Of a DNA stretch of 64,000 bases, positions 3,701-63,182 are shown piece after piece (the stretch's first letter is position 1; each line of letters begins with the position of its first letter). Location: positions 41,354,001-41,418,000 of the forward strand of contig OX597823.1 of NCBI GenBank assembly GCA_951406725.2, read 5' to 3'. The notes beneath the pieces are model-generated. The model searched no databases. It had not been told where the DNA came from and was given only the letters and a program-made list of their open reading frames with translations. Origin of the DNA: Octopus vulgaris. Its lineage: Eukaryota. The position numbers and the translations under genes were made by a program.

Positions 3701-3973
3701 TATTGTTATATTTCGGAATGGTCATATTGCCAGTTTAGCCAATAAAAACACACGCACTATATATTTGGTGTTATTTTGCTTCAGTGATATTTATTTTTTA
3801 CATTAATCTCAATCTTATTTCGGCCAAAGTTCTTTCGTCACACTCCTGTGACCGCATCAGTGGTCCTTTGTTTTCTTCTGGCTAAACTGGCAATATGACC
3901 ATTCCGAAATATAACAATATCTGTTTCAACACACGACTTCACATAAAAAATCTTGCACAACAAATATTTAAAC
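3701..3973. mobile_element. Fold-back PLE-like insertion in (TA)n: ~41-bp inverted arms plus one-sided tail
   Basis: 3701-3741 TATTGTTATATTTCGGAATGGTCATATTGCCAGTTTAGCCA is the reverse complement of ~3878-3919. A hammerhead-like motif lies in the spacer and (TA)n flanks both sides. Confidence 0.75.
3822..3866 (-). ncRNA. Minimal type I hammerhead-like motif (CUGAUGC core variant)
   Basis: Minus strand: GGACCA-CUGAUGC-G-GUCACA-GGAG-UGUGAC-GAAA-GAACU-U-UGGCC. Perfect 6-bp stem II, short stem I. Confidence 0.55.
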
Positions 3974-5272
3974 GTATATATATATATATATATATATATA
4001 TATATATATATAAATAAGCAACAAGAATGACTCCGGTAATTTGGTACGATTGTTTCATACTACATCATTTTATTAAATGTTGTAAGTATTATAACAGTTT
4101 TAAAATGCTGAGCACTCATCAGCCAATTATAGAGGTTTTCCATTAATACAAAAATTTTCATATCAAGTGGCAACATTATAGAGAAGGTAGATATATAGAC
4201 AAAGATGTGGATTTAAATTTTAAGAACATTTGAGTTAGTGGAGCCCATCAACTGGCTGGCTAAGATTCGGTTGCTCCAGACTACTGTATATATACCTTAT
4301 CATACTGTATGTGTATATATATATATATATATATATATATATATATATACCTTAGCATACTGTGTGTGTGTATATATATATATATATATACAGTATGATA
4401 AAACATATATTTTAACATACTATACATATTTAACATACTATATAGTATGCTTAGCATACTGTTTTGGTGAAATCTGATTGGTGATTATTTTGTCAGTGTG
4501 TGCATGTGACAGGCAAGACTGTCAACTGTTTGAACTGATTTTTGCAAAATTGGAGGTAGTTACACTCTAATAGAGTTTCAAAGGTAGTGAATGATTTGAG
4601 CTGAAACATAGTAATTGAGATTTTGATCCACGAGAATGTCATGAATAACTGTATATGTGGAAAAGAAAATTTTGTTTTCTTGTAAACTAAAATAGTTTGT
4701 ACAGGTGTATTTACTTGTATGGGTTGAATCTGTTAAAACATTATCTTTGTCATCAACATCCACCTTCCTGTGCTTGTACGAATAGAATTAGATTCCTTGA
4801 AGCAGAATTTTTGTGGCTGGATGCCCTTCTTGGCAACAACACTCATCACCATATATGGTAATATTTCCCCTAGGCTAGATATATTTTCACTGCAGATTGG
4901 AAACAAAGGACATTGCTTGTATGAGGCTGACACTCATTAAAAGGAGGAGACACTAATACATATACACAAATGTACAAGCGTGCACGTATACATGTGTATC
5001 TGTCTGTTTGTCTGTCTGTATATTCTGTCTGTCTGTATATGTCTGTCTGTCTGTCTCTCTCTCTTTCTCTCTCTCTCTCTCTCTCTCTCTCTATATATAT
5101 ATATATATATATATATATACACACAGACATACACACACATATATATATATATGTATATACACACACACATATACATGTGTAGATATACACTCATACATAT
5201 ATGCAATGAATGTACACACATCTCTTTGTCCTGTTCAATGTTCACTTTTGCCCTACTTCTAACATCGTCATT

Positions 5273-5660
5273 ATCATCATCATCATCTTTTAATGTCCAT
5301 TTTCCATGCTGGTATGAGTTGGACGGTTTGACAGAAGCTAAACAGCTGAAAAGTTATTCAGGCTTCATGTCTGTTTTGGCATGATTTCTATGGCTGGATG
5401 CCCTTCCTAATGCCAGAATGCTCTGGGTGCTTTTTACATGGCACCTTCACTTATGAGCCCACGAGATTAAGGATGCTCAGCAGCAGAGGGTTGCAAGGAG
5501 CGAGCCTGGATGCAAGAGTAACCATGCTTGTACTTAGCTTGGTGTGCCTTTTCTTGTTCCCCTGTCATTCTCTCTGAGCCCTAATGTTTCTAGACACTTT
5601 CTCACCTCTTCATCCCACGTCTCCCTGAGTCTACCCCTTCTACAATTTAAGATTGGCACT
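5273..5660 (-). mobile_element. Degenerate RTE 3' end
   Basis: (CAT)n tail, GCTGGATGCCCTTCCTAATGCC core, and the reverse complement of GRPRKTWDE-like codons at ~5600-5640. Confidence 0.7.
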
Positions 5661-6414
5661 TCTTGATGCAACTGTTATATTCACATAATTTACTTATGAT
5701 AGTTTTTTTCTCACAAACACATGCACTCACATGTACATGCGCATGCACACACACACACACACAAATGTGCACACTGCCAATTGTCCATTTTATTGTGTTC
5801 ATGTACACATATAAACACACACACACACACACACACTATTTCTCCAGCAATCACTATTTCATTTTACTGTTTTAGTACACGCGTACACTCCTGATACTCT
5901 CACTCACACATACGCATATATATATATATATATGCACACTATGCACACACATACGCACACATGCATACAACTCTCATGCACACACTGCTTATATCTCCTA
6001 TGTACATAAACACAGAAACAAAAACATGTATGTGTGTATGTGTATATATGCATACACGTGTGTATGTGTATATACACACACAGACACACAAGCACAGGTA
6101 GCTATGTATCACTTCCTTGCCACGAAGCCCACAATGATCCTTTTATGTTTCACATCCAGGGAGTCAAAGGATGAATGTATAAACTGATCCCCTGTGCATA
6201 TTTTTCATCATTCTGCTTTTCTTTTTATCCCCTTTCTTCTTCTATTCTTTATCTTCCCAGTTTCTCCTGTACTTTTGTCCATTATCTGAAGAATGACTAA
6301 TTCTGTAATGTAATATTCTTTATTTTCTCCAGTCTTCCTTCAGCATCAAACTAATAAAATTGATTGACTGTAAATGTATCCTGTACTTTCGTTGTTTTAT
6401 GTGTGTGTATATAT

Positions 6415-6640
6415 CATCATCATACTCATCATCATTTAACACTCATTTTGTATGCTGACAGTTTGACTAAAGTTGGCAAACTGGAAAGCTGTACCAGGCT
6501 CCAATCTGATTTTGTCTTGGCTTCTATGGTTGTATGCTGTTCATAATGCCAACCACTCCAAGAGTGTAGTGGGTGCCTTTTATGTGTCACCATCACAGGT
6601 GCTTTTTACGTGCCATTAGTACTGTCTGTAACTATGATTT
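6415..6640 (-). mobile_element. RTE 3' UTR fragment
   Basis: CATCATTTAAC...ACCAGGCTCCAATCTGAT...AACCACTCCAAGAGTGTAGTGGGTGC matches the reverse complement of 1920-2100. Confidence 0.7.
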
Positions 6641-60590: not shown

Positions 60591-60610
60591 AATATATATA
60601 TATCAGTATA

Positions 60611-60889
60611 TGTGGTGGCGCAATGGCCTAGTGGTTAGGGCAGCGGACTCGCGGTCGTAGGATCGCGGTTTCGATTCCCAGACCGGGCGTTGTGAGTGTT
60701 TATTGAGCGAAAACACCTTAAAGCTCCACGAGGCTCCAGCAGGGGGTGGTGATCCCTGCTGTACTCTTTCACCACTCTTTCTCCCACTCTTTCTTCTGTT
60801 GGCCTGCTCGCTTAGCCAGCGGGGTGGTGTCATTCGAAGGCTAAAACAATGCGAACGCATTGTGACCAGCGATGTGTAACTACATCTGA
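60611..60889 (+). mobile_element. CpG-rich tRNA-derived SINE family D
   Basis: A box TGGCCTAGTGG (60624-60634) and B box GGTTTCGATTCCC (60667-60679), followed by a ~200-bp non-tRNA body. Confidence 0.75.
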
Positions 60890-62980
60890 CACAAAGCTAC
60901 CTCCCTCAAAATTACTCTCCCTCTTTGTCTTGCAAGTTCTTTGCCAACCTTGCCAGTGCTGGTGCAACCAGTGCTCTCTGAGAAGCAATTGGCATTAAGA
61001 AGGACATCCAGGTGTAGAGACTGTTCTGAAGCAGGCAGTAGAGCTTGTCACAGTCTTCCAACTCCTTTCAGTCTGTCCAACCTGAGCCAGCATAGAAAAC
61101 TGACATGAGATGACAATAATGATATACACACACATACATACACGTTATGTGATATATGTTATTGTAGAGATGTAAGTTTAACTGAAAGTTAGGTTAAAGT
61201 TTTAAAATACGAGTCGTAAACAAAGTTTTAACAGATTAAATCAAAAGTGTAACTCAAACAAGGTTTATCGATTATAAGGTAAGGAAAGAAAACAAGAAAC
61301 ATTAGTCTAACAACTGGTGCATAATGACTAACATTTGATGAATAAAACATGATTAATTGAGGAAATTGAGGAAATTAACTTTACTTTGTTAATGTGATAG
61401 GAAAACCGGTGCATTCTAAACAAAAAGGGGTTATAGCAAGGTTGTATGGCTATATAGATAAGAGATAATAGATATTGAACTGGTAGATGTAAATGAAAGA
61501 AAGTGGTTTGTGGTGGTGTGTGGTGGGGTATGATAGGAGGACAGCTAGAATAATTGGGTTCTCACAATGCTGGTAAGAGAATTTCATGAAACAAATGCAG
61601 ACATGAATATATCTGGAGGGATTTTTTCTAATTCTTGGATTTCAATGGAGAACATGTGGAAAATGTGTGTTTGTGCATGCATGTATATATATATATATGT
61701 ATACATATATACACACAATACATTCATGTGTATAAAGCATAGGTAATCATTTACAAAGAAAGAACACCAGTATGAAAGAATTAATATAAAAGGTACGGAT
61801 GAGCAGATTGGTTCAACATACATATAAATATATATATGTATGTAAGTATGTATGTATGTGCATGTGTGAACTTATATATATATATATATATACATACACA
61901 CACACATATATATATATATATGAATGTATATATGTATTCATATGTATACACACACACATATATGTGCATGTCTGTATCTCTGTCTGCATATTTGTGTGCA
62001 TGTGTATATGTCCATGTATATAAATGCACATGTGGGAATCTGCATTTATGTATGTGTTATATTGTTTTGCTTGTTTGTGCTTATATATGCGTGTGTGTGT
62101 GTGTGTATATATATATATATATATATATATGTATATATATGTATGTATATATATATATATATATATATATATATATATATATATATATATATATATATAT
62201 ATATATATATATATGTATATATATATGTATATATATATATATGTATATATATGTATATATATATGTGTATATATATTTATATATATATATATATATATAT
62301 ATATATTTATTTATATGTGTATATATATATATAAAGAGGGAGAAAGAGAGAGAGAGAGGAAGAGAGTGGCACAATGCAAAGATGTATGACTTAATGCTAG
62401 TCTGATGTAGTGACACTTTGATGTAATCAACCACGCATACTGTGTAACTTCACATGCCCATATTTATGTGTAATGTGGTTAGAAATGGAATGGTACAGAA
62501 ACAATTTTAACTAATAATATAGTTCCTCTGAATTAATTCTTCATCTTCTCACGTGTATCTTATATGTGCGTGTGTGTATGTATGTATGTATGCATGTATA
62601 TATTTACATATAAATGTATATGTATGTATATATTTATATGTATGCATATATGTATGTGTGTGTGTGTATGTATATATATATATATATATATATATATGTA
62701 TGTATAAGATTAATACAAACAGCTGCTTGCAACGTTATATCATAAAGGAAAATCATAGTAGTCGAGTAAACTTAACTGAGGGTGTGAATAACACCTACAT
62801 TGTTAGAAATAGGAGCTAGAATGCTCCAGTGCTGTTACAAAGCACATAACATATACTCTGACAGGGGTTGCAATCACCTCGATCACCGAACTGAGGATTG
62901 CTTAGACTGACCGGTCCATTTTGCCAATGTCCATTGGGCAATTGCAGCCACTATCAGAGTATATATATATATATATATAT

Positions 62981-63182
62981 ATCTGTAAATGTAATATGTG
63001 ACAATTATTCGGTAGCCATGTTAAAACTCCGAGTTTCGGATGCTGGGGTGAGAATCCACACTGCCATCTCTTCAGTTATCCGGCCATCAAATAATTGTCA
63101 CATATTACATTTACAGATAAATTCCTCTATTTACATAATATCGAGGTCTCTTTCATTCTTTTGTTCTCTTACCATTTTTATC
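62981..63182. mobile_element. Fold-back PLE-like insertion in (TA)n: 29-bp arms plus one-sided tail
   Basis: ATCTGTAAATGTAATATGTGACAATTATT (62981-63009) is the exact reverse complement of 63090-63118. A hammerhead lies in the spacer. Confidence 0.75.
63020..63080 (-). ncRNA. Type I hammerhead motif
   Basis: GAUAA-CUGAAGA-GAUG...CAUC-C-GAAACUC-G-GAGU-U-UUAAC. Confidence 0.62.

What the first reader, a model, noticed from the sequence alone, without database searches (positions are those of the whole stretch)
3701..63182. Repeated fold-back, hammerhead-bearing insertions (PLE/retrozyme-like) with one shared architecture
Seen: five non-coding insertions (3701-3973, 13746-14149, 36796-39468, 42402-42713, 62981-63182) that look unrelated in sequence each consist of two outward-pointing copies of one terminus with hammerhead motifs. 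Four have a ~30-65 nt tail on one side only, and three sit in (TA)n. Solo motifs occur at 33969 and 59881, and degenerate ones at ~4090 and ~12001. Known: Penelope-like elements carry minimal type I hammerheads with palindromic stem III in their pseudo-LTRs, and leave inverted termini with a short 3' tail. Inference: about 12 motifs in 64 kb with no RT or GIY-YIG ORF point to a large, diverse population of non-autonomous ribozyme retroelements.
Basis: partly seen in the sequence, partly recalled or inferred. Interest (0 to 1): 0.8.

Follow-up and report, generated by a model that had tools for sequence, protein, structure and literature searches.

The report
Penelope-type ribozyme retroelement ends in octopus
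Six fold-back insertions in this stretch of probably octopus DNA carry mostly decayed hammerhead-ribozyme motifs and, in five cases, a tail on one side only, which is the published footprint of Penelope-like retrotransposons, so they are likely truncated or non-coding passenger copies of those elements and not a new system.

Summary
All five inverted-arm insertions exist, four have a one-sided tail of 29-63 nt, and a sixth was missed (16840-17021). Type I hammerhead motifs exceed chance under two descriptors written after viewing the sequence (7 vs 1.1, 0 of 500 shuffles; 6 vs 0.17). A strict scan shows no excess and Rfam listed no hammerhead. In three insertions only one copy holds a full motif. 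The architecture is published for Penelope-like elements (PLEs): inverted 5'-truncated copy, one-sided tail, (TA)n target, minimal ribozyme, opposite-strand pairs, U3-A8 core variant. The 42402 element belongs to a very high-copy family in two species. Its majority letters restore an intact core, and it has two fixed 3' ends 29 nt apart in about 1:1 ratio. A missing ORF in 64 kb does not prove non-autonomy. It is likely for two elements: 42402 (sharp 5' boundary, relatives in 129-nt tandems) and 36796 (1.19 kb non-coding arms, no substitution between them). No link to a PLE ORF, no cleavage and no circular RNA was shown. Verdict: new members of a known kind, modest interest.

The parts
3703..3974 (.). 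Fold-back 1: longer tail-less copy on minus strand, short tailed copy on plus strand (tail 3921-3974), (TA)n both sides
3820..3868 (-). Decayed type I hammerhead candidate (core at 3860, A9 changed), cleavage position 124 nt from the tail-less end; score 8.5, individually uncertain
4013..4133 (-). Solo decayed hammerhead candidate (core at 4122) ending at (TA)n
   Evidence: (score 9.4)
11995..12131 (+). Solo degenerate minimal hammerhead remnant between two (TA)n tracts; judged by eye, not among the scored hits
13746..14149 (.). Fold-back 2: 79-nt arms, no clear tail; full hammerhead on minus strand (core 13859, long helix II); the plus copy holds only the 3' half
16840..17021 (.).
33966..34128 (+). 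Solo type I hammerhead, best score in the window (core 33978, 8 of 9 helix I pairs, long helix II); decayed paralogue at 40700-40852
36797..39468 (.). Fold-back 3: 1189-nt non-coding arms with no substitution, 257-nt centre, 44-nt tandem (5.1 copies) and CA/TG-rich tract inside each arm, 36-nt tail on the left, (TA)n both sides
39374..39426 (+). Minimal hammerhead with U3-A8 core covariant and palindromic helix III (mirror copy at 36916 on minus strand)
   Evidence: variant described in PMC4209133
42402..42711 (.). Fold-back 4: both copies carry a minimal hammerhead (cores near 42497 minus, 42597 plus), tail 42683-42711; member of a very high-copy family
42390..42401 (+). Left target-site duplication (11 of 12 identical to 42712-42723) inside a SINE-like repeat whose other copies hold the site once
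42712..42723 (+). Right target-site duplication
59282..59376 (+).
59876..59944 (-). Solo type I hammerhead (core 59933), helix II closing pair lost
62981..63182 (.). Fold-back 5: 30-37-nt arms, hammerhead only in the minus copy (core 63075, Hydra-type helix III), tail 63120-63182, (TA)n both sides

Best explanation
The insertions are inverted pairs of one terminus with hammerhead motifs and mostly a one-sided tail, and they are likely the 3' ends of several unrelated Penelope-like retroelement families, some likely non-autonomous, put there by Penelope-type reverse transcriptase-endonuclease proteins. Inferred mechanism: the protein nicks AT-rich DNA, often (TA)n, on both strands. It primes reverse transcription from both ends at two fixed internal sites of the element RNA, 29-63 nt apart. 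The two incomplete cDNAs join at their 5'-truncated ends, which gives two outward-pointing copies, one with and one without the tail. Shown here: the anatomy, the target bias, one 12-nt target duplication, and for the 42402 family high copy number, two fixed 3' ends and an intact majority core. Shown elsewhere in vitro for one lizard element: two-strand nicking and extension, and two internal start sites that bound the tail (PMC11167929). Inferred: the joining step, the identity of the driving proteins, and any cleavage by these ribozymes. Most copies here are decayed relics and would not cleave.
For: Arms, tails, (TA)n. Motif excess. PMC8557442 describes an inverted 5'-truncated copy, a 30-40-bp tail at one end and (TA)n preference (passages). 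Its File S2 lists Hydra-clade hammerheads with the same helix III types as 63075, 16897 and 59293 (comparison by eye), and its metadata list a (TA)n-targeting Hydra-1 and Naiads in Octopus. PMC4209133 reports opposite-strand pairs 100-700 bp apart, an extra nucleotide after position 9, palindromic helix III and the U3-A8 core; all are seen here. Reads on 42395-42720 at 80% likeness: 23,020 contigs laid in run X1 and 22,528 in X2 (two organisms); summed depth 1.8-5.8 million over the plus-strand motif against 31-75 for the listed single contigs; heterogeneous loose ends at 42402, 42682 and 42711, giving tail-less to tailed counts of 401:373 (X1) and 397:359 (X2); majority letters restore the CUGAUGA box, helix I, the helix II closing pair and the AACGUU palindrome. 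Non-autonomy: 255 and 253 contigs break into an (ATT)n tract at 42558, about 60 nt upstream of the core; 10 of 11 spurious-protein hits to this segment are internally repeated, with a 42-43-residue (about 129-nt) period in the 6 where two motif copies were scored; fold-back 3 has 1.19 kb upstream of the motif and no Pfam hit in the frames scanned. Host: among the few named homologues of a LINE piece in the window, the most identical are Octopus bimaculoides (88% over 37% of the query, 71% over 52%); O. vulgaris has 31 recently active Penelope-like families (PMC13282606).
Against: No sequence link to a PLE RT or GIY-YIG ORF: 0 GIY-YIG hits in 150 of 669 window fragments; no genome held; four window motifs absent from the held, cut supplement of PMC8557442. 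A strict motif scan shows no excess and Rfam listed no hammerhead. MFE folds of 14 candidate stretches mostly do not give the hammerhead fold. Fold-back 2 has no clear tail and fold-back 1's motif is weak. Copy number was tested for 1 of 6 fold-backs. The (ATT)n boundary may be an internal microsatellite at which contigs break. The joining step is inference.
Confidence: 0.82

Rival explanations
1. All are 5'-truncated relics of autonomous PLEs; none is a separate non-autonomous family.
For: PLE insertions are heavily 5'-truncated; solo and opposite-strand minimal hammerheads were read this way in PMC4209133; most pieces here are under 330 nt, too short to reach an ORF.
Against: Fold-back 3 has 1.19 kb of repeat-rich DNA upstream of the motif without a Pfam hit. 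The 42402 family keeps high depth right up to an (ATT)n boundary, and relatives form about 129-nt tandems.
Confidence: 0.3
2. They are non-LTR retrozymes that cycle through self-cleaved circular RNAs, and the fold-backs are by-products.
For: One head-to-tail joint (42556 to 42711) in 200 RNA reads from 75 starts; tandem relatives; retrozymes are proposed to be non-autonomous PLE derivatives (10.64898/2026.07.22.740005) and occur in a mussel (PMC7229834).
Against: No head-to-tail array in the window. That joint is one single-copy-depth contig in DNA run X2 and absent from the rows shown for X1, so it may be one expressed locus. 93% of RNA reads run on into unlike flanks, reads are 0.058% of the records read (7,522 of 12.9 million), both directions are equal and no end pile-up was listed. 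This fits passive read-through, though fragmented libraries lose small circles.
Confidence: 0.12
3. The fold-backs are MITEs or other DNA-transposon derivatives and the hammerhead motifs are chance.
For: The window has at least one fold-back without a hammerhead, 18127-18696, whose translation resembles a mariner transposase end (resemblance recalled, no Pfam hit); TA flanks are also typical of Tc1/mariner (established knowledge); strict scan not enriched.
Against: One-sided tails, copies of unequal length, motif excess, two staggered family ends and a restored core in the family majority, 12-nt duplication.
Confidence: 0.04
4. Fold-back 3 (36796-39468) alone is an assembly or long-read fold-back artefact.
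For: Arms have no substitution in 1188 letters; the only differences are three T-run indels that look like sequencing errors.
Against: Symmetry stops exactly at the element end, with a 36-nt tail on one side, a 257-nt unpaired centre and different flanks beyond (TA)n. A read chimera would be expected to mirror the flanks too.
Confidence: 0.12

Closest known systems
Canonical C-terminal-EN Penelope-like elements, Hydra clade in particular (PMC8557442)
   Same: Inverted 5'-truncated copy, one-sided tail, (TA)n target, type I hammerhead about 30-125 nt from the 3' end, same helix III palindromes as Hydra-2_aMil, Penelope-16_HM and Penelope-13_HM; Hydra-1 is listed for Octopus bimaculoides.
   Different: No RT/GIY-YIG ORF attached here; two tails (54, 63 nt) are longer than the 30-40 bp described; several motifs have a long helix II (54-77 nt between the boxes); no sequence identity to a named family was shown.
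Minimal hammerheads of metazoan PLEs (PMC4209133)
   Same: Short helix I, extra nucleotide after A9, tiny palindromic helix III, U3-A8 covariant, opposite-strand pairs 100-700 bp apart, high family diversity in one genome.
   Different: Octopus is not named in its main text searches or the 2 of 3 supplement files searched.
Poseidon PAc of Anolis (PMC11167929)
   Same: Two fixed 3' ends bounding a tail; AT-rich target; ribozyme not needed for insertion in vitro.
   Different: There the ORF starts inside the ribozyme; no such ORF is evident here.
Non-LTR retrozymes (PMC7229834; bioRxiv 10.64898/2026.07.22.740005)
   Same: Short, non-coding, type I hammerhead, PLE-derived, high copy; relatives of the 42402 unit form tandems.
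   Different: Defined by head-to-tail arrays and abundant circular RNA. The window's copies are inverted pairs or solos and the RNA looks like read-through.

Membership tests
Penelope-like element (EN+) insertion | Inverted 5'-truncated copy giving inverted termini | tested here: met
   6 fold-backs
Penelope-like element (EN+) insertion | Tail on one end only, bounded by two fixed 3' ends | tested here: met
   5 of 6 fold-backs; two family ends 29 nt apart
Penelope-like element (EN+) insertion | Minimal type I hammerhead near the 3' end | tested here: met
   restored in the family majority for 42402; weak for fold-back 1; Rfam listed none
Penelope-like element (EN+) insertion | AT-rich or (TA)n target, or a target duplication | tested here: met
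   8 of 12 termini; 12-nt duplication
Autonomous Penelope-like element | ORF with telomerase-like RT and GIY-YIG endonuclease | tested here: not met
   0 hits in 150 of 669 fragments; these copies are therefore not filed as autonomous elements
Penelope-like element (EN+) insertion | 3' end homologous to an ORF-coding PLE of the same genome | not testable with these tools
   no genome held; collection scans empty
Non-LTR retrozyme | Head-to-tail tandem of short monomers, each with a hammerhead | tested here: inconclusive
   absent in the window; one joint; about 129-nt tandems in unnamed relatives
Non-LTR retrozyme | No protein coding | tested here: met
   for the stretches in the window
Non-LTR retrozyme | Self-cleaved monomeric and circular RNA | not testable with these tools
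   fragmented RNA-seq, no end pile-up listed
MITE / DNA transposon | Symmetric terminal inverted repeats at both ends | tested here: not met
   one-sided tails and unequal copies

The most novel reading that the evidence does not exclude
The 42402 unit is an undescribed ribozyme-bearing, SINE-like passenger of Penelope proteins with tens of thousands of copies in octopuses. Its near 1:1 ratio of tailed to tail-less ends records a paired-priming rule: one end of each kind per insertion, with the tail-less copy the longer one (4 of 4 clear cases here). Such passengers are still moving, as the substitution-free 2.7-kb palindrome with a U3-A8 core suggests. This would give a genome-scale natural test of how PLE inverted ends are made.
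Probability: 0.35. Interest if true: 0.5.

Novelty: new member of a known kind. Interest (0 to 1): 0.3.

Why it matters
The kind is known, so the main value is annotation: such pieces fill animal genomes and are easily mislabelled as SINEs, MITEs or unknown repeats. Two points could interest a specialist. First, a very high-copy, probably non-coding family with two fixed ends in about 1:1 ratio offers many natural events to test the unproven steps of PLE insertion. Second, a young 2.7-kb palindrome would show that PLE proteins move long non-coding cargo with a variant ribozyme core. My searches listed no paper describing octopus hammerhead families (octopus + Penelope + hammerhead, 4 listed; octopus + hammerhead ribozyme, 4 listed). 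The library lacks most subscription papers and repeat databases, and the O. vulgaris repeat library (on Zenodo) could not be seen.

Tried and rejected
No whole genome is held, so genome-wide scanning was impossible. Rfam: microsatellite-driven miRNA hits only; no hammerhead family listed. Strict descriptor: no excess. Pattern scans of metagenome, prokaryote genome (74) and viral (75) collections: 0 matches each. Protein searches with a reading frame of the 42402 arm to see upstream sequence: no candidate, none scoring; the HMMER search gave 11 spurious translations, all single-member unnamed clusters for the 10 looked up, which show relatives but not this family's 5' extension. No RNA holder is on record. 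No tRNA gene in the window and no B-box next to fold-back 4. Earlier findings: two look-ups, nothing. Rejected as members: 18127-18696 (no motif, symmetric, mariner-like by recalled resemblance); 5985 and 40374 (microsatellite-driven scores); 53312 and 50681 (one weak helix). Left open: 42988 (score 10.6, one core change) and the repeat at 13100-13745/2111-2384. MFE folding was uninformative. Supplements not seen: PMC7229834 (too large), file 1 of PMC4209133, the cut part of PMC8557442, and the docx of PMC13282606 (listed only); they may name octopus families.
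Full report
Setting. The window is AT-rich, microsatellite-rich animal DNA full of SINE-like and LINE pieces. Among the few named homologues of a LINE fragment, the most identical are Octopus bimaculoides proteins (88% over 37% of the query; 71% over 52%), so the host is probably an octopus. No assembly is held.

Observation. All five inverted-arm insertions are real. 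Four carry a one-sided tail of 54, 36, 29 and 63 nt. Three have (TA)n on both sides. A sixth, 16840-17021, has the same plan. 8 of 12 termini lie within 10 nt of (TA)>=5, against 5.8% of the window. The 42402 element interrupts a SINE-like repeat and is flanked by a 12-nt duplication (11 of 12 identical) that other copies of that repeat hold once. The fold-backs are not alike in sequence. One other fold-back, 18127-18696, has no motif and symmetric ends, so not every fold-back here belongs to this class.

Are the hammerheads real? A strict scan found 2 hits against 0.97 in 200 shuffles, and Rfam listed no hammerhead family. A scored type I descriptor gave 6 hits at score 10 or more against 0.17 (max 2 in 112 shuffles). 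An exact-core descriptor with helix I and a near-palindromic helix III gave 7 against 1.10, reached by 0 of 500 shuffles; two of the 7 are one duplicated motif. Both were written after viewing the sequence, so they overstate somewhat. About 13 candidates exist in all, about half of them individually strong (33978, 59293, 63075, 13859, 59933, 39385/36916). The independent check is: across thousands of related contigs in two organisms the majority letters repair the defects of the 42402 copies, restoring the CUGAUGA box of the left copy and helix I, the helix II closing pair and the AACGUU palindrome of the right copy (40 of 119 difference rows were shown). In fold-backs 1, 2 and 5 only the longer, minus-strand copy has a complete motif.

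The 42402 family. At 80% likeness 23,020 (X1, organism A) and 22,528 (X2, organism B) contigs were laid on 326 bases. Summed depth over the plus-strand motif is 1.8-5.8 million against 31-75 for listed single contigs. That points to tens of thousands of copies, roughly, since the tool warns the figure is no copy number. Loose ends with mixed sequence pile up at 42402 and 42682 (the same tail-less end on either arm) and at 42711 (tailed end): 401:373 in X1 and 397:359 in X2 (953 further loose-end rows not shown). Upstream, 255 and 253 contigs break into (ATT)n at 42558. In RNA run X21, 7,522 of 12.9 million reads were laid, equally in both directions; 93% run on into unlike sequence and no start or end pile-up was listed. 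One head-to-tail joint has 200 reads from 75 starts but only one single-depth contig in X2, so it may be one locus. Spurious translations of relatives from unnamed contigs are internally repeated in 10 of 11 hits, with a 42-43-residue period in the 6 where it was scored, so related units form about 129-nt tandems.

The 36796 palindrome. The arms match at 1188 of 1188 aligned letters with three one-base T-run indels. Each holds a CA/TG-rich tract, unique sequence, a 44-nt tandem and a motif with a U3-A8 core. That covariant is reported in Schistosoma PLEs (PMC4209133), so it need not be decay. The asymmetric ends argue for a young insertion and against a read chimera, but no reads were laid on it.

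Coding potential. 150 of 669 stop-to-stop fragments (the longest, plus some at the elements) were scanned against Pfam: one PHD finger, one RVT_1 of LINE context at 27561-28037, no GIY-YIG. No link to a PLE ORF was obtained.

Mechanism. Shown for the lizard element PAc in vitro: nicking and extension of both strands of AT-rich DNA, reverse transcription starting at two internal sites that bound the genomic tail, and no need for ribozyme cleavage; a protein dimer is predicted (PMC11167929, parts 1-2 of 4 read). Inferred here: both nicked ends prime a cDNA, one at each start site, and the two truncated cDNAs join head to head. This accounts for outward-pointing copies, a tail on one side and the near 1:1 ratio of ends. 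In the 4 clear tailed cases the tail-less copy is the longer; four cases are too few to call a rule.

Comparison. PMC8557442 (passages; supplement searches and part 2 of 59) describes the inverted truncated copy, the one-sided 30-40-bp tail and (TA)n targeting. It lists Hydra-clade ribozymes with the same helix III types and Hydra and Naiad families in Octopus. PMC4209133 (parts 1-2 of 4; searches) reports thousands of minimal motifs per genome, opposite-strand pairs and weak dimer-dependent cleavage. PMC7229834 (passages) and bioRxiv 10.64898/2026.07.22.740005 (parts 1-3 of 5) define non-LTR retrozymes as head-to-tail arrays and derive them from PLE ends. PMC13282606 (part 1 of 3 and passages) counts 31 recently active Penelope-like families in O. 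vulgaris and does not contain the word ribozyme. PMC8967140, PMC6155905, PMC7151607 and PMC6962438 were seen as passages only.

Verdict. The finding is real and works like PLE insertion products. The copies are not autonomous elements and are not shown to be retrozymes. The most likely reading is a mixture of truncated PLE ends and non-coding passengers from several families. These are new members of a known kind. Interest 0.3.

Noticed in passing
window 13100-13745 and 2111-2384: A repeat present twice, with a shared right end and different left ends, abuts fold-back 2. It carries a CUGAAGA box at 13495/2138 but no convincing full hammerhead; possibly another PLE-type end.
   Followed up: partly
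window 40700-40852: Decayed paralogue of the 33978 hammerhead element (E 3.5e-11) with the core lost.
   Followed up: partly
window 58512-58567 (minus): Second copy of the tail region of fold-back 1 (E 0.00028).
   Followed up: partly
window 18127-18696 and 12934-13107: 570-nt symmetric fold-back (81% arms) and a short frame that resemble mariner transposase pieces (resemblance recalled; no Pfam hit).
   Followed up: partly
window 553-1587, 41634-42323, 27558-28037: LINE-type RT fragments; the first has a PHD finger hit, the last an RVT_1 hit.
   Followed up: partly
window 42924-42999 (minus): Hammerhead-like candidate, score 10.6 with one core change; unresolved.
   Followed up: no
window 36934-37161 and 62981-63017: The 44-nt tandem inside fold-back 3 shares a 14-nt word with the arm of fold-back 5, in opposite orientation relative to their ribozymes.
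   Followed up: no
window 60640-60900 and 18880-18940: tRNA-like heads with A and B boxes (SINE-type), not linked to a hammerhead.
   Followed up: no
proteins P0121-P0130: Public protein collections hold spurious 43-residue repeat 'proteins' that are translations of tandem hammerhead units.
   Followed up: partly
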